Source: a virus (taxonomy: Duplodnaviria > Heunggongvirae > Uroviricota > Caudoviricetes). From it: 22,381 nucleotides of DNA. Numbering within the stretch: the first letter of the stretch is position 1; the number at the start of each line of letters is the position of its first letter. The notes beneath the pieces were generated by a model, which saw only the letters and a list, made by a program, of their open reading frames with translations, was not told the DNA's origin and did not search any database. Where the stretch lies: positions 1 to 22,381 of IMG/VR virus record IMGVR_UViG_2585427768_000008, one strand, 5' to 3'. Shown here one piece after another: positions 988 through 11,270 of the stretch. A program made the position numbers and the translations under genes.

Positions 988-1503
988 ATGGCGTTAACAC
1001 ACCACGAACTCTGTCAGATTGCGTACAAGTTCCTTAAGCGCAACGGGTTCAAGGTTTGTTTTCATGACCGCTTTATAGCTGTAACCAGTACCGGAGAACA
1101 GCCAGATGCTATGGGATTCAGAAATTCAGCATCATGCCTGATAGAGGCGAAGTGTTCTCGTGCTGACTTGTTAGCAGATAGAAAAAAGCGTTTTCGTAAA
1201 AATCCGTCTCTTGGAATGGGCGACTGGCGATTCTTTATTAGTGAGCCGGGAATTATTTCAATTGAGGATTTACCACCTGGCTGGGGGTTACTTCACGTTG
1301 TTAACGGAAGAGTACGGAAAGTACATGGGTGGCCCAGGGGTAATTGCTGTTGGGGTAATCCTGACGATAAGCCATTTACTGGAAATAAGCAGGTTGAATG
1401 CGATTACATGTTATCTGCATTAAGGCGCATGGAGTTGAGAGGGCACCTTAATGAAATATATGACGGTGTAATTGTTAATAAGAAAGAAGGAAACGCGGCA
1501 TGA
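988..1503 (+). CDS. hypothetical protein with PD-(D/E)xK nuclease-like motif
   Basis: ATG at 988 with AAGGAG 7 nt upstream (the track start at 955 lacks an RBS). Protein contains ...QPDAMGF...(x13)...LIEAKCS, a PD...ExK signature. Stop overlaps next start (ATGA at 1500). Confidence 0.6.
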   Translation: MALTHHELCQIAYKFLKRNGFKVCFHDRFIAVTSTGEQPDAMGFRNSASCLIEAKCSRADLLADRKKRFRKNPSLGMGDWRFFISEPGIISIEDLPPGWGLLHVVNGRVRKVHGWPRGNCCWGNPDDKPFTGNKQVECDYMLSALRRMELRGHLNEIYDGVIVNKKEGNAA

Positions 1504-2228
1504 TCACTATTACCAAAGAGCGACTACTGACAATCAAGCAGTGCCGCGAAACATACGGACCTGGTAGCAACGTTGTACTGCCAGCAGAAGAAGCGGAAGA
1601 ACTGGCACGGATTGCACTGGCATCGCTGGAAGCAGATCCAGTTAAACGAGTTAACTCAGATCAGATGCGCCGAGTCTGCTTAGAAGCTAATCGCCATTTA
1701 GATAAATATGACGCGATGGCGAAAGAGGTAAATAAGTTGCTTGGACGCATCGCCCCGCCAGCGCCGGTAGTGCCGGAAGAAGCAACTCCGGAAAACGTAG
1801 AAATGCTCTCTGGCTATGTTTCCACGTACAAATTAACCGATAGCGAGCGCGATATTGCTGCCGAAATATGGAACGCCTGCCGCGCCGCCATGCTTCAGTC
1901 CGGAAACTTTCGGGAAAATAAAGATTCGTCAACCAATAATTTTCGGAAAATCCCGGAAGCGTCAACCAACCATCCGGTAACTCCGGATGGTTGGATAAGC
2001 TGTAGTGATCGAATGCCAGAAATGGGAGAGCGACAATACTATGTGTTAGCAGCTGACTTTAAAAACAACTACCCACCAAGCATCCCCAACACTCAGGTCG
2101 GCGTATATGGCGACTGGTTTAATGATGGCAATCCCACTTGGGATGACGGTGATGGCGAAGACCTGCATCTCAAAGAAGTAACCCACTGGATGCCGCTACC
2201 AGAACCGCCGAAGGAGGTACGCCAATGA
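1500..2228 (+). CDS. DUF551-type prophage protein
   Basis: 242-aa ORF; C-terminal W/D-rich segment ending ...THWMPLPEPP matches my recollection of the DUF551 signature found in enterobacterial prophage early regions. Confidence 0.65.
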   Translation: MITITKERLLTIKQCRETYGPGSNVVLPAEEAEELARIALASLEADPVKRVNSDQMRRVCLEANRHLDKYDAMAKEVNKLLGRIAPPAPVVPEEATPENVEMLSGYVSTYKLTDSERDIAAEIWNACRAAMLQSGNFRENKDSSTNNFRKIPEASTNHPVTPDGWISCSDRMPEMGERQYYVLAADFKNNYPPSIPNTQVGVYGDWFNDGNPTWDDGDGEDLHLKEVTHWMPLPEPPKEVRQ

Positions 2229-2315
2229 CCTAGCCTGAAGCATTTGCAATTGTAGTGGCTGCCATTTCGATCGCACTGATTGTTTTTGCGATTTTGCCGC
2301 TGGGGGTAAAATAGT

Positions 2316-2507
2316 TCACCTGCATGGAGATTTGATGCCGGGGAATTGTGGGGGAGCATTCAAACCTCTCCCCTTCCCGGTTAAAGACTCCATTGCTTTG
2401 CGGTCAGAGAGATACATCAGCTTCATCAGCTTAATGAAACGCATAGATCCGCCATGCTTTTTCAGCAAATACGCTGCCATTTGCGCAACTTTTTCTTCAT
2501 TAAACAT
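2316..2507 (-). pseudogene. truncated Panacea (DUF4065)/SocA-like antitoxin fragment
   Basis: 63-aa ORF with N-terminus ...AQMAAYLLKKHGGSMRFIKLMKLMYLSDRKAMESLTG, resembling the Panacea LKLQKLLY core, but it ends after about 60 aa where full-length members run 150-300 aa. Confidence 0.35.
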
Positions 2508-2600
2508 AAATCGGCTCTCTGTCTCACATGAAATACTCTTTCTGACTATATGTTAATAGCTCCGGTTATTACAGGTTAATGTGTGTTTATTTCTTAATCA

Positions 2601-2630
2601 GCCCCGCACTTCCGTACGGGGCCATTTCTG
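2601..2630. terminator. GC hairpin between convergent gene sets, possible bidirectional terminator
   Basis: GCCCCG (2601-2606), 10-nt loop, CGGGGC (2617-2622), followed on the + strand by CATTTCTG. Lies immediately 3' of the giant gene stop (2631-2633, minus strand). Confidence 0.4.
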
Positions 2631-5600
2631 TTAATCCACTCCCACTTTTTTGTTGTACTCGCGGTTAAACCGATCCACGGCAACCTTCATATCCCGCTCT
2701 ACCGATTTCACCATCGCCGCCTGCTGCGCCAGACTGAGAGAACTGTCGGCATAAATGGCATCGCGCTGTTTGCGCAAATCCTTCAGTCTCTTCCGGGTAT
2801 CCTGCATAAGCCCGTTCATCAACAATTTTCCGTTGTTCTCGTCAATGAACGCCGTTCTTTCTGCACCGGTCAGACTCTTCAGCTCTGCGTGATACTGCGC
2901 AACCTCTGTCATCCGGTCGTACATCTTCTGCTGGTCTGCATACGGCATCACCTCACCCGAAATTTTCCCCAGGAAGGGCACCTGCTGTTCCGGTATATCA
3001 ATACCATTCAGCGATTTCACCGCCGCATCCGTGGTTTTGGAAATGAAGCGCCCTGTCCCTCCGGAGATATAGTCAATCCAGAATTTCAGCGATTCCGGTG
3101 TGATATCCACCGCGCCGGGACGATACTGGCTGCCACCTGAGAACGCATTCAGCCAGAATGCAAACGCCTTGTACGCTTCTGGCGTTGAACGTCTTCCCAG
3201 CTGGCTGTCAGGTTTTGGTGTACCAAACGGCATGTTCTCCTGGTAAATCTGCGCCCCCATGAAGTTTTCGTTCATGGCAAGATTCGCAAACGGACGCAGA
3301 ATTGTCGGTGCTGCATTTTTCAGCAATGCCCCCGACAACGTTTCCGACGTCTCGCTGCCGATCGGGCTGAATGCCCCCAGGATACCGCCGACAACATTAC
3401 CGGCAGCACGTGAAGCAGTCAGGTCGCCCGCTGCCACACCTTCAGCTGTATGACCAAGCAGGAAGAACACGTTGTACCCGTAAGGCAGAGGAATACTCCA
3501 GTACTCACCGGCCTTGCCCCCGAACATCGATTTCATGATGACGAGGTTACGCTCTTTCACATGAGACGGTACTTTGTCGTACCAGTTACCCCCGTCATCA
3601 TCCTCCCCCGCCACACTGCGGTTAAGCGAGCCAAGCAGATAACCCGCTCCCACAGCTGCAAGCACGATTTTCTGCGGTACATTGAGATTCTTCCAGCGAA
3701 GGCGCTCCAGTAACGGCCCGTCGCCATTAAGATGTCCGAGCGTTCTCACCAGGTTTGCGGTCCCCTGAATGCTGGCGTTGGCAAACATGTACAGCGAGTT
3801 CATCAGCATCCCCTGCTCACCACGACGGTTAAAGTTCACCGTCATGTTTTTGGCAAGAGACGCCGCCTGCTGGCGTGACAAACCGGCATCACGGGCGTGT
3901 TTATAGGCAGAAAGACGCAGAGCGTTTTCAACCGCGCCGTTGGCATCCTCGACCAGGTTCAGGAACGAATGCCATGCACCGATACTCTGGCCTTTCCATC
4001 CGCCCTTCGCCAGCGACACAAGGCGATCCATTTCCTTCTGCTGGCCCTCAAGGTCACCCATGTTAAACCAGCCGGTTTTACCTCCGTCCTCAACAAACTC
4101 TTTCCACACTTTCTGCCACTGTGCGCCTTTGCCCGTGAGGGTTTTACCCCGCAGACTTGCGTATACGGCTGACATGGCGGAACGGCTGTCTTTCACCACA
4201 GCCAGCGCGGATAAGTTATCCAGCTCTTTCAGTTTACCGTCGCTCCTTCCCTGCTCAGCCTTCAGGTTCATCACCGCAGTCTGCACGTCACGGATGAAGT
4301 TACTGACCAGAAATTCCGGGTTATACGACGTGTTCACCGTTGCCAGGAAGCGGTTAACTTTCCCCAGCGTACGGATTACGGCGTTACTGGTTTCCGGCCC
4401 CATGTTCTTCATCGCACGCATCAGGCGCGGATCATGAAGTTTAATGTAGTAAGTTTTGCCGTCCTTTTTGGTGGTGAAGTAGCGATCCGCCATCATTGCC
4501 ATCGGCACAGGGCGCTCGACAACTTCGCGAATGGTTTCACCAGTTTCCTGGTCCTTGCGCTCTGCAATCACACGCATTGTATCCGGTCTGTCATCAGTGA
4601 ATCCCTGCCAGTAATCCTTGTCGGGATTATCCTGTACCAGTTTCAGGAAGGCGTTACCCACTTCATTTTTGCGATTGCGGATCAGCGATTCACTCAAATC
4701 CTGTATCGCCTGAGTGGAAGGAGACTGTGCGCGGGATGCACGCCCCATGGCCTGCTTACTTTCACGCCCGCCGATGGTGAATCCCTTGCCTGTACGTGGC
4801 TGTGACACCACACCGTCAACATCCTGCCCTTTCAGGGGGACGTAGTAACGGTAGGCTTTCTGCCAGGCATCCACCACGCCGCTCTCTTCCAGTCCTGCCT
4901 CACGGATAATCTCACGGCGACGGGCCAGCATATCGTCAATAATCCCTGCCAGACGGTCATACTGTGCCTGTTTGCCGCTGTTACGCACACGCTGCATGAT
5001 TTCCGCCGCTTCCGCGTTGGTCATCCCCGAACCGCCGTCCGGCATTTTCGGGTTGATTTTCGCAATATGCACGTTACGTTCCGGCGCGTGACGGGCGTAG
5101 AGGTACTCATCCAGATCGGCCTGCGCAATTTTGTAGTCCGCCAGCAATTTGGCCAGCGGCTGAACGTAGCGCTCCTTCATTACGTTCAGGTCGTTTTCCG
5201 CCTTCCCGTGGAAGAGTTCTTCAGCCATATAGGCGTTATTGCTGTCATCTATTTTTCCGCCAGTTTTACGGATATTCTCCTGCACCGCCTTCAGCACCTG
5301 GAATTTATCCTGCATCTGGCGAACAAAACGGGATGCAATTGTCTCTTCCGGCGTCAGACTGCTGGTGCGGGAGTAATACGGCCCCTTGCGAATATCTTCA
5401 GGATAGAGTATTTTATCAACAGAGCCGCGATAAGAATGTTCCCCTTTGGGCAATTGGAGCCCTCTGTGCAGAAGGTTATCGCGGCTTAATTTTTCTCTCC
5501 GGTACAACGTTAAACCGGTCATTTCCATACTCTTCAGTTTTTTCCCGTTTTCCGTACCGTAAACAGATGCCACCTTGTTGATTTCCAGGCGCGACCGGAC

Positions 5601-8600
5601 AGCCTTCATGTGTACCGCTGACACCACCGGATCACCATTTTTATCCACGGCATCAAGCAGCATCACAACCGCGTTTCTTTCTGTCGCGGAACGGTAAATT
5701 GCATCCGGATCGTGCATCAGTTCCGGTAGTCTCTCGATAACATCCATCGGCACCACATGTTTCACACCATTGGTGGCCTTACGCACAGTGTCGCGGGAGA
5801 TAACCAGCGGCAAATCTGGTGCGCCAAGGTGACGCAATACCGGCGGCGTACGCCCGATGTTTACCGTTAAATCCGTTGAGCGCAGAGACTTCATCATTCT
5901 GGCAAGGTCATCACGATAACGCTCGCCCTCACCTTCCGGCACTTTGAACGGATCAGGCTTACCGCTACGGGAGTACTGAGACGATGCGTCCGCGCCATCC
6001 TCACGCGGCGTGTAACCTTCCCGCACACGCTGGCCTAACGTGCGAATAGTTTCGCGAACAAGTCTGATATCGTTCAGTTCCGTCGGCTTCAGTAACCCCG
6101 TACGACGCAGTACCCCTTTGACCAGGGCAACAACACGCTCCCATGCCGCCACGAATTTAATCGGCTGCTTCTCTGCCATATGCGCCAGAAATTCACCCGC
6201 CTGCACTTCCGGTGATTCCTTACCATAAGACGCATCAACCTTACGCCAGGCTTCACGGATGGTGGCGTTATCACTGTCACGGGTTTTCAGCACGGTCTTA
6301 ATAATCGTCTGATATTCCGCTGGCGTGACTACATGCTCCATTGCATGGTGAATAATCTCGTGACGTAACTTCTCGCGAACGGTCCGCCCGTCAGGGATGT
6401 TATCCGCCACCAGGACAATTTCACGTTTATCCGGACGATAGAACGCGTGCACCTTGCCGTAACCGTCGAATGATTCCCCCGCCAGTGCTTCAGCCTCTTT
6501 CTGTGACTTCACCACGCGGACCTTCAGGTCACTGTCCTTAATGCCACTAATCACGCCACGGGCAACAGCTTCAACCTGCGGGACCGGACTGCCTTTGGCT
6601 TCCGCACTACGGTTAACATCCGAAATCAGATTGCCTTCAGGTGTGCGGGTCACGCCCTTACGGGAATAAAACGCAACTCCCTTGTCCGTCTCACGGGTTT
6701 TCAGTGTTCGGAACAAGTGATCGAATGCCTCACGAATACCGCCATCCAGTTCTGCATTCGTCGGATAAGCGTAGGTGTCCGGCTGTCCATGGTCATCCGC
6801 CTTACGGATATTGACCAGATAATCATTCTCCACGCCAGCCATACGCGCTTTATCCTGAACATAACGCTCAAAGGCTCGCGCCGCCATTTCAACATCCGTT
6901 GACCAGTACGGTTTTGAACGAACGCCATCCAGGCGTTCAGAACGACGCAACATGTCACTGCTGTTAATGGCTTTCATCACGCCTTTAAACGCGTCGTAAA
7001 CCTCCTGACGTACCGGATATTCCGCATCAACATACCTGCCGTCTTTAAATACGCGCCCGGCACGCTGTGCTTCCGTCATATAGTCGCCACCTGACGTGAT
7101 CTTCCCGTCAGTGGAAACATCATAACGACCAAAATAATTATCCAGTGAATGGAACCATTCGTGGGCCAGCGCCCCCGGTCCGTTACCTTTTGTCAGGTTG
7201 ATTGCCACCTCACCCGGCTCATAGTGTGCCGCCGCCTTACCCTTACCACGGGCACCAAAAGCAAGCCCAAGACGACCGTTCAGAGAAAGCGCTTTTGTCG
7301 GCACGTTCAGCACGTCAGCCAGGTCATGCAGCGAGTCATAAGCCCGGTTCAAATCAGCCTGACGACGCGGACTTTCCACATAATTACCAAACTGCACACC
7401 ACGAAAACCAAACGCATCACTGAACTGCTCCGGCGAAACATCCCCCTTGCGGCGTTCTGGTCCGGTACGATCGCGGTTGGTGGCGTTACGCTGCTCCTCA
7501 CGCGAGACTTCACGCAGCGCCTTCACCTGATTAACCAGCTCATCACGATGTGTGCGCACATAATCATGTGCATCACGGGCAGACTCAAAACCGCCCTTCA
7601 GTTTCTGCCTGTTTTTGCCATAACCGATAAAAATGTCGCCACTGGCCTTATGCCGGTACACGTCAAAGGTTATTCTGTCATCAGCAGAGGTTGCTGGCGT
7701 TTCCCTTTCTCTGGAGCCTTGTTCATCGAAATATGCTTTCGCCTTTTTCAGTAACTCATCCCGGCTTTCCGAGAAAAAGAGGTCGCGCCCCTTGCTATCA
7801 CGAAGCGAATACATCATTTGCGGCGGATCGTAACGTTTTCCCCCGACAAACGAATAAACACCGGACCTGACACGATAGCCGGATGCTTTATCAATCTGCA
7901 ATGCAGAAAGCGTACGGAGCAGTTTCCAGGTATCCGACATGCTCCGTAACCCCGGCTTACTGTCCATCATATCAGCCAGTTTCGCTGCCGGAATTTTCCC
8001 CTCCAGCATACCGGCAGTAGCTTCGCGACCGCTTTTAACAATGCTGATCCATTTCTGCATGTTACGGCTTGTTCTGGTGGGAATTTCACTGCGATACAAC
8101 GCCATCATTGCCAGCGTGTCACTATCCACACCTTCTTTTTCCAGACGGGCATAATCCGGCTTTGGAAACAGTTTGCTCAGTGGTTGTGTCGCGTACTCCC
8201 CATCCTCCAGCGTTTTACCCATAGCTTCAGCAAGCTGCGCATAACGGTGTTTTGCCGCGCCCTTAATCTCCTCGCCAAAGTCTTCAATTTTCGCACCACG
8301 CGCCTGCTGGTGAGTGCTCGGTTTATCTACCGGCACCGGCACCTCAGTATCCGGAACATCGGTTATGGTCTGGCGATTATCCCCGGTCTGTCTGCGTGCT
8401 TCTGCCTGCTGTGCCAGTTCCGGAAGGGAGTCACGAACCATACGAGGGAGTGATTCAGGCTGTGGCATATCAACCCCACGCTGACTTTCAGGTGCAGGAA
8501 GACCTTCACGCACTGGTGCTGTGGCGTTCTGCTCATCCGGTGACGGCAGACCACGACGAACTGTTTCGCCCTCCAGTATTTCCCCCTGGCGACCAGCGGC

Positions 8601-10484
8601 ATTTTCCGGTGCCTGCGCACGTCCTTTCTGGAAACTCTGGCCCTTCACCTCACCGGTTGTGGTAAAACGACCACCACGTCCGGCCTGATTTTCATCCGGC
8701 GTACGCGCTACTTCTCCTGGTAACGGATATCCCTGTCCGGGATGAATATCGCCGGGAGCGGGAAGGCGTGGACGCTCAGTTAACTCCTGTGCTGTCGGAC
8801 CGGCATCACCTTCAGCCATCTGGGAACGCACCAGTTCTTCCGCCGTCGGCGCGTTGCCACGAGCAAGACGGGCCTGCACTTCTGTATCATCCCCCGTAAA
8901 ACCACGGAATCGCGGGTCACGCATGAACGCGGGCTGTTCCATCGGATCAGCATCAGTAATACGCTCTCCGTCAGCCAGAGTGTTAATGGTCTCCGTTGCC
9001 ACATCTTCAGAGAACGCAGGATTATCCATTTCAACGGCATACTGATTCTCGCCTTTCTTCACTACGGACGGTTTCAGGCCGGTGGCGCTGGCATTGCGGA
9101 AAACGTCGCTCCCCAGAGCACTTTTTTCATCCGTGAAATAACGGTTGTCCGGACGCACCTTTTCAATGCGTTCTGCTGGTCTGGACGCACCACTCTCGTT
9201 AATTTCAATACGAACTTCATCCGGATCGCGGAACCGCACCGTCGGGTAAATACTCCCGTCGCCATCATCCGCATTTTCCGGCTGTGGCTGTGCCTCCGGT
9301 CTGGCCTCCCGCTGAGGGCGAAGCACATCACGTATTGCCTGTAACTGCTGCTCTTCAGTATCAGTACGCCCTTCCTTCTGGCTGAGTTTTCGGTATTCCT
9401 CAAGCAGTTCAGGGCGCGGCTTCGCCTTCAGCTCATCCATCACCGCCTGTCGCTTCGCCTGTTCATCCAGTTCATTCAACAGCTGGCTGGCGGCTTCCCG
9501 GCGATGAACGGCAGACGTGTCTCCCTCATGTGCCATATCCGCATCAGCATACTGTTCCAGAAGCTGCTCGCGATTCATCCCCTGCATAGATTCACGATGC
9601 TGTGCCACCGGATCAACCGGTTCGGGTTGCGGAGCCGATTCGTCCTGAGGAACGCTTTCAGCCTCACGCATGGCTGCTTCATCTGCCGCCTGACGTTTTC
9701 CACGATATCCGGCAGCCGCACCGAATGGTGCCCCCATTGCAGCACCAAGGGCTGCACCTTCGATCGTTGCGTCAGCCACGCCCTCCCACGGTGACACATC
9801 CATTCCGGCGGTCTCACGCAATGCCGTGTTTTCCTGATAGCGTGAATAGCCACCCTGCGCCGCATTAATCGTCCCCTGTTCCGTGGCATTTCTGACAATG
9901 CCGCTTTTAACGGTCTTCGCCGTGCCCCGCATCGCCAGATTAAGCAACTGAGCATCGCCCAGTTTTGCCGCCATGGCATTCACAGCCAGCAATTCAGGAT
10001 CGGTTGCCAGCTGCGCACGCACCTCATCGGCAACACGCTCTTTTGCCAGGTCCATTTTCTGGCGGTCAGTAAGCTGCGCGTGCTGCGGATCTGCATCAAT
10101 TGACAAAAAGGTCTGCTGAAATTTCGGTGACTTCGCCAGCTCAGAATAATCCGCGTTAAGAACAGCATCTGCCGCTGCCATTGCACTCCGCCCTTGCGCA
10201 CTGACAGTGGAATGGGTGATCAGGCCTGCCTGGAAAAAATCCGGCATTTTTTTATCGACAGCTTCGGCTGCCAGTGCTGTGGCTCTTTCCGGCTGCATCC
10301 CTGCCGCGATGTATTTTTTCTCCAGCCCGGCGGTCAGCACTTTTCGCAGAGTGACATCACCCAGCTTTTTAGTCACACCGCCTGCAACCATATCCGGTAC
10401 AAGCGCACCAATCAGGTTAACTCCACAAGCCTTCGCAACTTCAGGGATGCCGACACCTTTAATCGGCTCATCAAGATTTTGCAT
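2631..10484 (-). CDS. giant multidomain protein (about 2617 aa) with zincin-like HExxH motifs; function unknown, possibly polyvalent-protein-like
   Basis: Uninterrupted 7.9-kb ORF on the minus strand. Preferred start is ATG at 10484 (AAGGA 7 nt upstream); the track start at 10517 has no RBS. HEWFH encoded at 7149-7163 and RHEIIHHAMEH at about 6334-6363. No Walker A or methyltransferase motifs seen. GC content visibly higher than the neighbouring AT-rich operon. Confidence 0.9.
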   Translation of the reverse strand: MQNLDEPIKGVGIPEVAKACGVNLIGALVPDMVAGGVTKKLGDVTLRKVLTAGLEKKYIAAGMQPERATALAAEAVDKKMPDFFQAGLITHSTVSAQGRSAMAAADAVLNADYSELAKSPKFQQTFLSIDADPQHAQLTDRQKMDLAKERVADEVRAQLATDPELLAVNAMAAKLGDAQLLNLAMRGTAKTVKSGIVRNATEQGTINAAQGGYSRYQENTALRETAGMDVSPWEGVADATIEGAALGAAMGAPFGAAAGYRGKRQAADEAAMREAESVPQDESAPQPEPVDPVAQHRESMQGMNREQLLEQYADADMAHEGDTSAVHRREAASQLLNELDEQAKRQAVMDELKAKPRPELLEEYRKLSQKEGRTDTEEQQLQAIRDVLRPQREARPEAQPQPENADDGDGSIYPTVRFRDPDEVRIEINESGASRPAERIEKVRPDNRYFTDEKSALGSDVFRNASATGLKPSVVKKGENQYAVEMDNPAFSEDVATETINTLADGERITDADPMEQPAFMRDPRFRGFTGDDTEVQARLARGNAPTAEELVRSQMAEGDAGPTAQELTERPRLPAPGDIHPGQGYPLPGEVARTPDENQAGRGGRFTTTGEVKGQSFQKGRAQAPENAAGRQGEILEGETVRRGLPSPDEQNATAPVREGLPAPESQRGVDMPQPESLPRMVRDSLPELAQQAEARRQTGDNRQTITDVPDTEVPVPVDKPSTHQQARGAKIEDFGEEIKGAAKHRYAQLAEAMGKTLEDGEYATQPLSKLFPKPDYARLEKEGVDSDTLAMMALYRSEIPTRTSRNMQKWISIVKSGREATAGMLEGKIPAAKLADMMDSKPGLRSMSDTWKLLRTLSALQIDKASGYRVRSGVYSFVGGKRYDPPQMMYSLRDSKGRDLFFSESRDELLKKAKAYFDEQGSRERETPATSADDRITFDVYRHKASGDIFIGYGKNRQKLKGGFESARDAHDYVRTHRDELVNQVKALREVSREEQRNATNRDRTGPERRKGDVSPEQFSDAFGFRGVQFGNYVESPRRQADLNRAYDSLHDLADVLNVPTKALSLNGRLGLAFGARGKGKAAAHYEPGEVAINLTKGNGPGALAHEWFHSLDNYFGRYDVSTDGKITSGGDYMTEAQRAGRVFKDGRYVDAEYPVRQEVYDAFKGVMKAINSSDMLRRSERLDGVRSKPYWSTDVEMAARAFERYVQDKARMAGVENDYLVNIRKADDHGQPDTYAYPTNAELDGGIREAFDHLFRTLKTRETDKGVAFYSRKGVTRTPEGNLISDVNRSAEAKGSPVPQVEAVARGVISGIKDSDLKVRVVKSQKEAEALAGESFDGYGKVHAFYRPDKREIVLVADNIPDGRTVREKLRHEIIHHAMEHVVTPAEYQTIIKTVLKTRDSDNATIREAWRKVDASYGKESPEVQAGEFLAHMAEKQPIKFVAAWERVVALVKGVLRRTGLLKPTELNDIRLVRETIRTLGQRVREGYTPREDGADASSQYSRSGKPDPFKVPEGEGERYRDDLARMMKSLRSTDLTVNIGRTPPVLRHLGAPDLPLVISRDTVRKATNGVKHVVPMDVIERLPELMHDPDAIYRSATERNAVVMLLDAVDKNGDPVVSAVHMKAVRSRLEINKVASVYGTENGKKLKSMEMTGLTLYRREKLSRDNLLHRGLQLPKGEHSYRGSVDKILYPEDIRKGPYYSRTSSLTPEETIASRFVRQMQDKFQVLKAVQENIRKTGGKIDDSNNAYMAEELFHGKAENDLNVMKERYVQPLAKLLADYKIAQADLDEYLYARHAPERNVHIAKINPKMPDGGSGMTNAEAAEIMQRVRNSGKQAQYDRLAGIIDDMLARRREIIREAGLEESGVVDAWQKAYRYYVPLKGQDVDGVVSQPRTGKGFTIGGRESKQAMGRASRAQSPSTQAIQDLSESLIRNRKNEVGNAFLKLVQDNPDKDYWQGFTDDRPDTMRVIAERKDQETGETIREVVERPVPMAMMADRYFTTKKDGKTYYIKLHDPRLMRAMKNMGPETSNAVIRTLGKVNRFLATVNTSYNPEFLVSNFIRDVQTAVMNLKAEQGRSDGKLKELDNLSALAVVKDSRSAMSAVYASLRGKTLTGKGAQWQKVWKEFVEDGGKTGWFNMGDLEGQQKEMDRLVSLAKGGWKGQSIGAWHSFLNLVEDANGAVENALRLSAYKHARDAGLSRQQAASLAKNMTVNFNRRGEQGMLMNSLYMFANASIQGTANLVRTLGHLNGDGPLLERLRWKNLNVPQKIVLAAVGAGYLLGSLNRSVAGEDDDGGNWYDKVPSHVKERNLVIMKSMFGGKAGEYWSIPLPYGYNVFFLLGHTAEGVAAGDLTASRAAGNVVGGILGAFSPIGSETSETLSGALLKNAAPTILRPFANLAMNENFMGAQIYQENMPFGTPKPDSQLGRRSTPEAYKAFAFWLNAFSGGSQYRPGAVDITPESLKFWIDYISGGTGRFISKTTDAAVKSLNGIDIPEQQVPFLGKISGEVMPYADQQKMYDRMTEVAQYHAELKSLTGAERTAFIDENNGKLLMNGLMQDTRKRLKDLRKQRDAIYADSSLSLAQQAAMVKSVERDMKVAVDRFNREYNKKVGVD

Positions 10485-10562
10485 AGGGATATCCTTTTTC
10501 GTACTTTCAGTACGCATTATGATTGAACTGAAAGTTTTTGCAAGTGCTTTAGTATCGTACTC
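10485..10562. promoter_or_regulatory. divergent promoter/operator switch region between giant gene and cI-like repressor
   Basis: Minus-strand promoter TTGCAA (10538-10543), 16-nt spacer, CATAAT (complement of 10516-10521). Perfect 15-bp palindrome CGTACTTTCAGTACG (10500-10514) just downstream of the -10; inverted partial copy ACTGAAAGT (10527-10535). A third CGTAC-N5-GTTCA element (10556-10570) overlaps the cI start. cI has no Shine-Dalgarno; TAGTAT (10550-10555) lies 7 nt before its ATG, suggesting a leaderless transcript as for lambda pRM. Confidence 0.5.
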
Positions 10563-11270
10563 ATGGTTCAGAATGAAAAAGTGCGCAAAGAATTCGCCCA
10601 GCGGCTAGCGCAAGCCTGTAAAGAAGCTGGTCTTGATGAACATGGTAGGGGAATGGCTATAGCCCGTGCCCTTTCTCTTTCGTCCAAAGGCGTTAGCAAA
10701 TGGTTTAATGCTGAGTCTTTACCGCGTCAGGAAAAAATGAATGCGCTTGCGAAATTTCTAAACGTTGATGTTGTTTGGCTTCAGCACGGCACTTCGTTAA
10801 ATGGAGCGAATGATGAAGATACTCTTTCATTTGTTGGCAAATTAAAAAAAGGGTTAGTGCGCGTGGTTGGTGAGGCAATTCTTGGTGTTGATGGTGCCAT
10901 CGAGATGACCGAAGAGCGCGATGGGTGGCTCAAAATTTATAGCGATGATCCAGATGCCTTTGGCCTTCGTGTGAAAGGAGACAGCATGTGGCCCAGAATA
11001 AAATCAGGAGAATATGTACTCATTGAGCCTAACACCAAAGTATTCCCGGGTGATGAGGTGTTTGTCAGAACCGTTGAAGGACACAACATGATTAAGGTTC
11101 TTGGCTATGACAGAGATGGAGAATACCAATTTACAAGCATTAACCAGGATCACAGGCCTATAACGTTGCCTTATCATCAAGTAGCAAAGGTGGAGTATGT
11201 AGCTGGTATTCTGAAGCAATCTCGCCATCTGGATGACATCGAGGCAAGGGAGTGGCTGAAAAGTTCGTGA
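10563..11270 (+). CDS. cI: CI-like prophage repressor (N-terminal HTH, C-terminal S24 LexA-like peptidase)
   Basis: 235-aa ORF. N-terminal HTH-like segment (GMAIARALSLSSKGVSKWFN) and C-terminal GDSMWP serine motif with a downstream conserved lysine (MIKVLG), as in LexA/CI autocleaving repressors. Position and orientation match cI relative to the pL operon. Confidence 0.88.
   Translation: MVQNEKVRKEFAQRLAQACKEAGLDEHGRGMAIARALSLSSKGVSKWFNAESLPRQEKMNALAKFLNVDVVWLQHGTSLNGANDEDTLSFVGKLKKGLVRVVGEAILGVDGAIEMTEERDGWLKIYSDDPDAFGLRVKGDSMWPRIKSGEYVLIEPNTKVFPGDEVFVRTVEGHNMIKVLGYDRDGEYQFTSINQDHRPITLPYHQVAKVEYVAGILKQSRHLDDIEAREWLKSS

What the first reader, a model, noticed from the sequence alone, without database searches (positions are those of the whole stretch)
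2316..2507. Truncated Panacea-like antitoxin fragment directly downstream of the giant gene
Panacea (DUF4065) domains are antitoxin or immunity modules encoded next to their toxins. A 63-aa remnant with the characteristic LKLxKLxY core lies co-directional and just 3' of the giant gene. If the full-length ancestor neutralised a toxic activity nearby, its decay and the neighbouring hairpin may mark a former toxin-antitoxin junction.
Basis: partly seen in the sequence, partly recalled or inferred. Interest (0 to 1): 0.4.

Follow-up and report, generated by a model that had tools for sequence, protein, structure and literature searches.

The report
Dead remnant of PanA–PanT toxin-antitoxin cassette
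The 63-codon reading frame is the leftover first 40 codons of a Panacea-type antitoxin gene; one 864-bp deletion removed the rest of that gene and its MazF-like toxin partner, so it is an ordinary pseudogene scar in a decaying Shiga-toxin-type prophage.

Summary
Window 2316..2507 (minus strand) is a 63-aa ORF, 123 nt 3' of and co-directional with the giant gene. Residues 1-40 are 100% identical to the N-terminus of an intact 186-aa Panacea (PF13274) antitoxin found at this position in rare E. coli prophages. There, PanA is followed 5 nt later by a 133-aa partner. The partner's family models with high confidence as a MazF/PemK fold. It corresponds to toxin cluster T6 of Kurata et al. 2022, which contains an experimentally validated toxin. 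Relative to the intact locus, the window carries a clean 864-bp deletion with 1-nt microhomology, from PanA codon 41 to 17 nt past the PanT stop. The last 23 codons are out-of-context read-through into the cassette's 3' flank. The lost toxin was therefore the downstream MazF-like gene, not the giant gene, which encodes a virion polyvalent protein. Sister Stx phages carry independent lesions: 933W has internal deletions in both genes, and PhiR5_2 has lost the toxin. None of 5,426 complete E. coli genomes keeps the intact pair. The remnant keeps 14 of 113 Panacea-domain positions and its tail frame differs between alleles, so it is most likely non-functional. The system is of a known kind and interest is low.

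The parts
2388..2507 (-). Codons 1-40 of a PanA (Panacea/DUF4065) antitoxin gene. This is the only PanA-derived part of the ORF.
   Evidence: 40/40 aa identical to the intact 186-aa PanA of L011. DNA matches L011 5435-5555. The Panacea domain spans residues 27-139 of intact PanA, so only 14 domain positions remain.
2387..2387 (-). Deletion junction with a 1-nt (T) microhomology. 864 bp of the ancestral cassette (about L011 5557..6420) are missing here.
   Evidence: Window 2800..2387 matches L011 5142..5555, and window 2387..2259 matches L011 6420..6546. Junction sequences are compared. The identical junction occurs in POCJ13, HUSEC2011, NCCP 13983 and S19-651.
2316..2386 (-). 23-codon tail plus stop codon of the chimeric ORF. 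It is read-through into what was non-coding DNA downstream of PanT.
   Evidence: Matches L011 6421-6490, beyond the PanT stop at 6402. The tail frame is not conserved: a 1-nt deletion in O104:H4 HUSEC2011 gives a 91-aa ORF with a different tail.
2259..2387 (-). Retained 3' flank of the PanAT cassette, including an imperfect inverted repeat at about 2337-2381.
   Evidence: 95% identical to L011 6420-6546. The fold is not better than shuffles (z -0.3 and -1.4).
2415..2432 (-). Tandem 9-bp repeat AAGCTGATG x2 encoding KLMKLM. This is the ancestral state; one unit is lost in POCJ13, 75/02 Stx and PhiR5_2.
   Evidence: All distant PanA homologs have the full-length motif.
2508..2599 (-). PanA 5' region: a GAGAG Shine-Dalgarno-like motif 7 nt before the ATG, and a degenerate promoter-like site TTAACC-18-TAACAT (2579..2550).
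   Evidence: In the intact locus the site is TTGACC-18-TAACAT (9/12, L011 5363-5392). The window has a G>A change in the -35 hexamer and falls below the scan threshold. The evidence is weak, because such sites are not more frequent than in shuffles.
2600..2623 (-). 10-bp G+C-rich hairpin just 3' of the giant gene's stop codon, with no U-run after it.
   Evidence: Fold energy -20.5 kcal/mol, z -4.37, 0 of 200 shuffles fold as well. It is conserved in all alleles, including those with no PanA remnant (L053).
2631..10517 (-). Giant polyvalent-protein gene (LPD5, LPD1, MuF_C, LPD38). In this window it is 5'-truncated. It is context for the finding, not part of the TA module.
   Evidence: Pfam domains. 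Homology to the POCJ13 giant gene starts at its codon ~196 and ends at window ~10394. The phi24B homolog gp47 is a virion protein.
1500..2228 (+). Convergent DUF551 gene. This module abuts the cassette's 3' flank at window ~2259.
   Evidence: Pfam DUF551, E 7.8e-20. Homology to the intact locus ends at ~2259.

Best explanation
Window 2316..2507 is a non-functional scar of a two-gene type II toxin-antitoxin cassette (PanA antitoxin, MazF-fold PanT toxin). That cassette sat as an autonomous accessory module immediately after the giant virion-protein gene of Stx-type (Sepvirinae) prophages.

In the ancestral state, PanA (186 aa, stand-alone Panacea domain) is inferred to bind and neutralise the 133-aa PanT encoded 5 nt downstream. 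PanT is a predicted MazF/PemK-like translation-inhibiting RNase. A single illegitimate deletion of 864 bp with 1-nt microhomology removed PanA codons 41-186 and all of PanT. Losing both genes together is harmless to the host. What remained was the PanA start, 40 codons, and a random 23-codon read-through tail.

Shown here: the homology, the deletion endpoints, the intact ancestral architecture, the MazF-like predicted fold of the partner family, and the independent decay in sister phages.

Inferred: toxicity of this particular PanT, its neutralisation by PanA, and the lack of function of the remnant.
For: 1. Identity to PanA. The remnant is 40/40 identical to the N-terminus of intact PanA. Intact PanA scores PF13274 at E 7.5e-22, and the PhiR5_2 ortholog at the same position scores E 2.4e-19.

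2. Intact ancestral locus. L011-L016 read giant gene, hairpin, PanA, PanT, flank, then convergent IbrB/IbrA. PanA and PanT are identical in all six loci.

3. Deletion mapping. Window 2800..2387 matches L011 5142..5555 and window 2387..2259 matches L011 6420..6546.

4. Toxin fold. The AF2 model of the partner family has pLDDT 94.2. All 50 top Foldseek PDB hits are MazF/PemK toxins (best E 8e-4, probability 1.0, TM 0.5-0.65).

5. Conserved pairing. PanT lies immediately downstream of PanA in the Yersinia, Klebsiella, E. coli, Pseudomonas, Vibrio and Helicobacter phages, with no giant gene annotated in the flanks examined.

6. Link to validated systems. Pantoea septica LMG 5345 (4-nt overlap) and strain 2016-Iso4 (1-nt overlap) carry this PanA-PanT pair. 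Both are rows of toxin cluster T6 in Dataset S1 of Kurata et al. 2022. T6 also contains the P. moraviensis PanT shown there to be toxic, to inhibit translation and to form a complex with its PanA (PMC8832971). That PanA starts MIFSEQKVAQ, the same N-terminal motif as here.

7. Independent decay. The window-type, PhiR5_2-type and 933W-type alleles have mutually incompatible breakpoints. 933W L0135 is an internally deleted PanT.

8. Relaxed constraint. There is a 9-bp loss in the conserved motif in POCJ13 and a frameshifted tail in O104:H4. Only 14 of 113 Panacea-domain positions remain.
Against: - No experiment shows that this E. coli PanT is toxic or that this PanA neutralises it. The link to validated systems runs through cluster membership and a predicted fold, with TM-scores of only about 0.5-0.65.
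- The remnant keeps its start codon, a Shine-Dalgarno-like motif and 40 perfectly conserved codons. RefSeq annotates it as a protein (WP_000481379.1), so expression of a short peptide is not excluded.
- Diversity among the window-type alleles is too low to measure selection on the remnant.
Confidence: 0.88

Rival explanations
1. The Panacea protein was the immunity or antitoxin partner of a toxic activity carried by the giant gene itself, as in a MuF-type polymorphic toxin with a downstream immunity gene. On this view the fragment marks the decay of that immunity gene.
For: The giant protein contains a MuF_C domain. PanA lies directly 3' of the giant gene and is co-directional with it.
Against: - In intact loci PanA has its own MazF-fold partner 5 nt downstream.
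- The same PanA-PanT pair occurs in phage and genome loci where no giant gene was seen in the flanks examined.
- The C-terminal third of the giant protein is LPD38, with no toxin domain detected.
- Isolated phages such as 933W, POCJ13 and phi24B keep the giant gene without an intact PanA.
- The phi24B homolog is a virion protein and proposed ejection protein.
- A conserved hairpin separates the two genes.
Confidence: 0.03
2. The 63-aa ORF is a genuine small protein gene. The retained, highly conserved PanA N-terminus is expressed and still does something, for example as a decoy or partial antitoxin against related PanT toxins, or as a regulator.
For: - The start codon and Shine-Dalgarno-like motif are intact.
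- The 40 N-terminal codons are identical to intact PanA, while the neighbouring giant-gene 3' end differs at 21 of 311 positions.
- The ORF is annotated in RefSeq and forms its own PHROG (phrog_3658).
- All three decay lineages keep at least 29 N-terminal codons.
Against: - Only about 12% of the Panacea domain remains. That domain is described as a compact fold of seven helices and two strands, and neutralising contacts map to core residues further along the chain (PMC10440598).
- The tail differs between alleles: 63 aa, 60 aa, or 91 aa with a shifted frame.
- POCJ13 has lost three residues of the invariant motif.
- The -35 hexamer of the candidate promoter is weakened.
- Allele L053 lacks the region entirely.
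- Sharing the N-terminal codons is expected from recent common descent.
Confidence: 0.07
3. A chance ORF with a coincidental Panacea-like motif.
For: No Pfam hit for the fragment on its own.
Against: 40/40 identity to intact PanA with E 1e-26. 96% DNA identity with conserved synteny. A hit to phrog_1281 at E 1e-4.
Confidence: 0.01

Closest known systems
PanA-PanT type II toxin-antitoxin systems, toxin cluster T6 (Kurata et al. 2022, PNAS, PMC8832971). The validated example is Pseudomonas moraviensis PanA (WP_083354365.1) with PanT (WP_083201923.1).
   Same: - Stand-alone Panacea antitoxin with the same N-terminal motif (MIFSEQKVAQ there, MFNEEKVAQ here).
- Antitoxin-first gene order, with a small overlap or gap.
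- A partner of about 135 aa with a predicted MazF/PemK fold.
- Two T6 genomes from the paper's dataset (Pantoea septica LMG 5345 and strain 2016-Iso4) carry direct homologs of the E. coli pair.
   Different: The window holds only 40 codons of PanA and no PanT at all, so it is a pseudogene and not a working system. The intact E. coli version sits after the giant virion-protein gene of Stx-type prophages. I did not find that location described in the papers I read. The E. coli pair itself has not been tested experimentally.
MazEF / PemIK toxin-antitoxin systems
   Same: The toxin fold predicted for the lost partner matches. All top Foldseek hits are MazF proteins from E. coli, M. tuberculosis, S. 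aureus, B. subtilis and D. radiodurans.
   Different: - The antitoxin is a Panacea-domain protein, not MazE or PemI.
- There is no sequence-level match to MazF: no Pfam hit and nothing significant in the PDB profile search.
- Catalytic residues were not examined.
Sister remnants in Stx phages: 933W L0135 (AAD25478.1), the unannotated 27-codon PanA stub of 933W and Sakai Sp5, and PHROGs 3658, 28947 and 1925
   Same: They derive from the same ancestral cassette at the same position after the giant gene.
   Different: The breakpoints are different and independent. 933W has two internal deletions (L011 5523-5920 and 6040-6253) and keeps pieces of both genes. The window has one 864-bp deletion and keeps nothing of PanT.
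Orphan PanA of Escherichia phage PhiR5_2 and 18 complete E. coli genomes (WP_032270877.1, 'Panacea domain-containing protein')
   Same: Same gene at the same position, with 97% DNA identity up to the window's breakpoint.
   Different: PanA there is nearly full length and still matches Pfam. PanT is deleted after 6 codons. That PanA has a stop at codon 9 and lacks the KLM residues.

Membership tests
PanA antitoxin (Pfam PF13274 SocA_Panacea / DUF4065) | Panacea domain detectable above the Pfam gathering score | tested here: not met
   The window ORF gives no Pfam hit at E<=10. Only residues 27-40 of the 27-139 domain survive. The intact ortholog meets the criterion: E 7.5e-22 at 78.8 bits and E 2.4e-19.
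PanA antitoxin (Pfam PF13274 SocA_Panacea / DUF4065) | Descent from a PanA gene (orthology by sequence and synteny) | tested here: met
   40/40 aa identity, E 1e-26. 96% DNA identity over 414 nt at the same position after the giant gene. Hit to phrog_1281 at E 1.1e-4.
PanA antitoxin (Pfam PF13274 SocA_Panacea / DUF4065) | Adjacent cognate toxin gene in a two-gene arrangement | tested here: not met
   There is no PanT sequence in the window, because the 864-bp deletion removes it entirely. The intact loci meet the criterion, with PanT starting 5 nt after PanA.
PanA antitoxin (Pfam PF13274 SocA_Panacea / DUF4065) | Neutralises its toxin by direct binding | not testable with these tools
   This needs co-expression and pull-down assays. 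Pull-down complex formation was shown for the P. moraviensis T6 pair and four other PanAT pairs (PMC8832971).
PanT toxin cluster T6 (MazF/PemK-like), for the lost partner | MazF/PemK-type fold | tested here: met
   AF2 model from a 53-sequence alignment, pLDDT 94.2 and pTM 0.88. All of the top 50 Foldseek PDB hits are MazF-family toxins, probability 0.98-1.0, TM 0.46-0.66.
PanT toxin cluster T6 (MazF/PemK-like), for the lost partner | Belongs to the same homologous cluster as the validated P. moraviensis PanT | tested here: inconclusive
   Homologs found in Pantoea septica LMG 5345 and Chimaeribacter 2016-Iso4 have the gene order and overlaps (-4 and -1) listed for those genomes under T6. The P. 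moraviensis sequence itself was not available for direct comparison.
PanT toxin cluster T6 (MazF/PemK-like), for the lost partner | Toxic when expressed alone | not testable with these tools
   Experimental only.
MuF-type polymorphic toxin with downstream immunity gene (giant gene as the toxin) | Recognisable toxin domain at the C-terminus of the large protein | tested here: not met
   Pfam finds LPD5 (892-1035), LPD1 (1196-1275), MuF_C (1585-1674) and LPD38 (2311-2516). No toxin domain is detected.

The most novel reading that the evidence does not exclude
The PanAT cassette behind the ejection-protein gene may be actively selected against in Stx phages. At least three independent lineages destroyed it, always eliminating the toxin, and none of 5,426 complete E. 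coli genomes keeps it intact. One possible reason is that a MazF-type toxin released on prophage induction would cut phage and Shiga-toxin yield. Alternatively, the universally retained PanA 5' stub (promoter region plus at least 29 codons) could still be expressed as a functional peptide.
Probability: 0.08. Interest if true: 0.5.

Novelty: new member of a known kind. Interest (0 to 1): 0.22.

Why it matters
The main value is in annotation and evolutionary bookkeeping.

- **Annotation.** Several 'hypothetical proteins' and unknown-function PHROGs (3658, 28947, 1925) recur across Stx-phage and STEC records, including 933W L0135 and an ORF in the O104:H4 outbreak prophage. They can now be read as fragments of one PanA-PanT cassette.
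- **Evolution.** The locus is a clean natural example of toxin-antitoxin erosion. Three independent decay routes never leave the toxin intact without a full-length antitoxin.
- **Experiment.** The work identifies the rare intact allele that could be used to test what a MazF-type PanAT module does in an Stx prophage.

It does not reveal a new kind of system.

Tried and rejected
- **Pfam on the fragment** and on the POCJ13 and 933W fragments gave nothing. This is uninformative because too little of the domain remains.
- **Pfam on the partner proteins** gave only sub-threshold ICMT noise. A sequence-profile search of the partner against PDB found nothing significant. The fold comparison was needed instead.
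- **PADLOC** has no defence-system model matching PanA, PanT or the remnant.
- **Rfam** found no RNA family anywhere in the window.
- **The promoter and terminator scan of window 2100-2800** found no promoter-like site. The two 'terminator-like' hits lie inside the PanA coding remnant and are at chance level.
- **KLMKLM.** I first took it for a 9-bp duplication specific to the window. I rejected that because the intact gene and all distant homologs have it, so the 9-bp loss in POCJ13 and PhiR5_2 is the derived state.
- **The giant gene as cognate toxin** was considered and rejected (see rival explanations).
- **The plus-strand ORF 2332..2556** (74 aa) is antisense to the remnant. I did not compare it with any database and treated it as spurious.
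- **Dataset S1** of Kurata et al. does not list WP_032270877 in the part held as text.

Full report
**1. Observation**

The minus strand of window 2316..2507 carries an ATG-initiated 63-codon ORF: MFNEEKVAQMAAYLLKKHGGSMRFIKLMKLMYLSDRKAMESLTGKGRGLNAPPQFPGIKSPCR.

On its own the ORF has no Pfam match, even at E<=10. The 'LKLxKLxY' motif is present as IKLMKLMY.

**2. Where the window comes from**

The region is 95-100% identical to Stx-type (Sepvirinae) phages and E. coli prophages.

- A 491-nt stretch around the finding is 100% identical to E. coli 23CRST047. RefSeq annotates the ORF there as hypothetical protein WP_000481379.1.
- Different phages share the window's sequence only up to different points:
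  - POCJ13 and 75/02 Stx match throughout.
  - PhiR5_2 matches up to window 2387.
  - 933W and its relatives match up to about 2420-2426.

This pointed to a mosaic or deletion junction inside the ORF.

**3. An intact homolog at the same position**

In phage PhiR5_2 and 18 complete E. coli genomes, the gene after the giant gene is a 174-aa (183-codon) protein. It scores PF13274 SocA_Panacea at E 2.4e-19, and RefSeq calls it a 'Panacea domain-containing protein'.

**4. The partner gene**

More distant full-length homologs of this PanA (37-53% identity) occur in Yersinia, Klebsiella, E. coli, Pseudomonas, Vibrio and Helicobacter phages. In all of them a 133-139-aa ORF lies immediately downstream, either annotated or found by tblastn.

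- This partner family has 62 clusters, all annotated 'hypothetical', with no Pfam domain.
- It has no sequence-level PDB match.
- An AlphaFold2 model from a 53-sequence alignment is confident (pLDDT 94.2).
- All 50 best Foldseek matches to that model in the PDB are MazF/PemK toxins.

Kurata et al. 2022 (PMC8832971) describe exactly this kind of pair.

- PanA antitoxins are paired with toxin cluster 'T6', annotated by HHpred as EndoA/PemK/MazF-family RNases. The order is antitoxin first, and overlaps of -4 or -1 are common.
- The P. moraviensis pair was shown there to be toxic, to inhibit translation, to be neutralised by its PanA and to form a complex with it.
- Its PanA begins MIFSEQKVAQ.
- Two genomes listed under T6 are Pantoea septica LMG 5345 and 'Yersiniaceae bacterium 2016Iso4'. 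My scan with the partner alignment recovered both, and each carries PanA-PanT with the listed overlaps.

I could not compare directly with the P. moraviensis toxin sequence. T6 membership is therefore strongly indicated but not proven.

**5. The ancestral locus**

One partner cluster (P0044, 133 aa, E. coli) is the full-length form of 933W L0135. L0135 equals P0044 residues 1-11 joined to roughly residues 87-124.

Looking up where P0044 is encoded gave six loci, L011-L016, from five draft E. coli genomes and one metagenome. They read, in order:

- giant gene (LPD5, LPD1, MuF_C, LPD38)
- hairpin
- PanA (186 aa, PF13274, E 7.5e-22)
- a 5-nt gap
- PanT (133 aa)
- 139-nt flank
- a second, 148-bp copy of the giant gene's 3' end
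- convergent IbrB and IbrA
- antirepressor
- ynfF

PanA and PanT are identical in all six loci.

**6. What happened in the window**

Against L011:

| Window | L011 | Identity |
|---|---|---|
| 2800..2387 | 5142..5555 | 96% |
| 2387..2259 | 6420..6546 | 95% |

The window is therefore the intact locus minus about 864 bp. The deletion runs from PanA codon 41 to 17 nt beyond the PanT stop, with a single shared T at the junction.

The ORF's first 40 residues are 40/40 identical to PanA (E 1e-26). The remaining 23 residues are read-through into former non-coding flank.

The identical junction occurs in POCJ13, O104:H4 HUSEC2011, NCCP 13983 and S19-651, so it was a single event, now present in 43 complete genomes. 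Later changes are:

- a 9-bp loss in the KLMKLM repeat in POCJ13
- a 1-nt deletion in O104:H4 that shifts the tail frame and gives a 91-aa ORF

**7. Independent decay elsewhere**

| Allele | Lesions (L011 coordinates) |
|---|---|
| PhiR5_2-type | Keeps PanA, but with a stop at codon 9 and loss of KLM. Deletes 6019-6763, which removes PanT from codon 7 |
| PhiR5_2-type derivative | Carries an additional IS3 insertion in PanA |
| 933W-type | Deletes 5523-5920 inside PanA and 6040-6253 inside PanT |
| L054 and L055 | Share the 5522 breakpoint with 933W and have lost more |
| L053 | Has nothing after the giant-gene hairpin |

The three main alleles (window-type, PhiR5_2-type and 933W-type) each retain segments that the others lack. 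None can therefore derive from another, and the intact form must be ancestral.

No complete E. coli genome (0 of 5,426) covers at least 80% of the cassette. No Stx or Sepvirinae-type phage record has an intact PanT.

**8. Function**

The remnant keeps 14 of the 113 Panacea-domain positions. The domain is described as a compact fold of seven helices and two strands, and neutralising contacts have been mapped to core residues (PMC10440598).

Three more points argue against function:

- The tail frame varies between alleles.
- The candidate promoter is TTGACC-18-TAACAT in the intact locus. In the window its -35 hexamer is weakened to TTAACC. This promoter evidence is itself weak.
- There is no toxin left to neutralise.

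I conclude that the ORF is a pseudogene scar. Expression of a short peptide is not excluded.

The giant gene is not the lost toxin. It has no toxin domain. Its phi24B homolog is a virion-packaged protein and proposed ejection protein. The PanAT pair also occurs in loci where no giant gene was seen in the flanks examined.

The hairpin at 2600-2623 folds far better than shuffles (z -4.4). It belongs to the giant gene's 3' end and persists in alleles without any PanA remnant.

**9. Comparison, novelty and verdict**

The ancestral module is a member-like relative of the known PanAT T6 family. The window holds only a degraded fragment that fails the family's domain and partner criteria.

Nothing here is a new kind of system. 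The useful output is the re-interpretation of recurrent 'hypothetical' ORFs and PHROGs 3658, 28947 and 1925 as PanAT debris, together with a tidy example of toxin-antitoxin erosion.

Interest is low, about 0.2.

Noticed in passing
window 10394-10420 (junction); 10563-11270 (cI): The giant gene in this window is 5'-truncated. Homology to the POCJ13 giant gene begins at its codon ~196 and ends at window ~10394. From window 10418 onward the sequence is 99% identical to the 933W cI/cro immunity region (933W 12927-11845) in collinear orientation. This implies a deletion of about 36-37 kb relative to 933W, covering replication, Q/stx, lysis and most morphogenesis genes. The window therefore comes from a defective prophage, and the ATG at 10517 is not the native start.
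   Followed up: partly
L011 5195-5341 and 6542-6689: In the intact loci the PanAT cassette is bracketed by two direct copies of the 148-bp 3' end of the giant gene (last 117 nt plus hairpin), 92.6% identical to each other. Copy 2 is closer to the window's giant-gene allele (97.3%) than to its own copy 1. This suggests the cassette's right-hand junction arose by recombination with a second phage, and it provides a substrate for precise cassette loss. The window lacks copy 2; its homology ends exactly where copy 2 would start (~2259).
   Followed up: partly
window 2415-2432; L002 and L003 equivalents: The tandem 9-bp repeat AAGCTGATG x2 (KLMKLM) has lost one unit in both POCJ13/75-02 Stx and PhiR5_2-type alleles, which carry different large deletions. 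This looks like recurrent slippage. It removes three residues of a motif present at full length in all distant PanA homologs.
   Followed up: yes
L003 ~3088-3090 (PhiR5_2) and L005: The 'intact' orphan PanA of PhiR5_2 and E. coli G1/2 has CAA>TAA at codon 9, so it is annotated from Met10. Together with the KLM loss, this suggests that the orphan antitoxin is itself decaying after loss of its toxin.
   Followed up: partly
L001 2734-2922 (933W L0135) and 2923-3081: 933W L0135 (62 aa, 'hypothetical') is an internally deleted PanT. Upstream of it, 933W keeps PanA codons 1-29 and, out of frame, the last ~25 PanA codons. PHROGs 1925, 28947 and 3658 appear to be families built from such fragments.
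   Followed up: yes
L051 245-520 (E. coli O104:H4 HUSEC2011; also C227-11): The Stx2a prophage of the 2011 outbreak strain carries the same 864-bp deletion scar. It also has a 1-nt deletion in a C-run that extends the chimeric ORF to 91 aa (WP_000481378.1).
   Followed up: yes
L008 1501-1875 (Pseudomonas phage Sirocco): A PanT homolog (40% identity to the E. coli PanT by tblastn) lies directly after PanA but is not annotated. The record instead annotates a short ORF on the opposite strand (1741-1875).
   Followed up: no
L001 1916-2190 (933W), L053 2369-2442, L054 2367-2522: Other alleles of this prophage end carry a hok/sok-type (hokW/sokW) type I toxin-antitoxin locus a few hundred bases from the PanAT scar. 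The right end of these prophages thus seems to collect toxin-antitoxin modules.
   Followed up: no
L011 6764-8619; L003 659-2472: Intact and PanA-only alleles are always next to the IbrA/IbrB module (PAPS-reductase-like plus ParB-like). The window-type allele is next to a DUF551 / Ea22-like module instead.
   Followed up: no
window 2332-2556 (+): A 74-aa plus-strand ORF lies antisense to the PanA remnant. It was not compared with any database and is treated as spurious.
   Followed up: no
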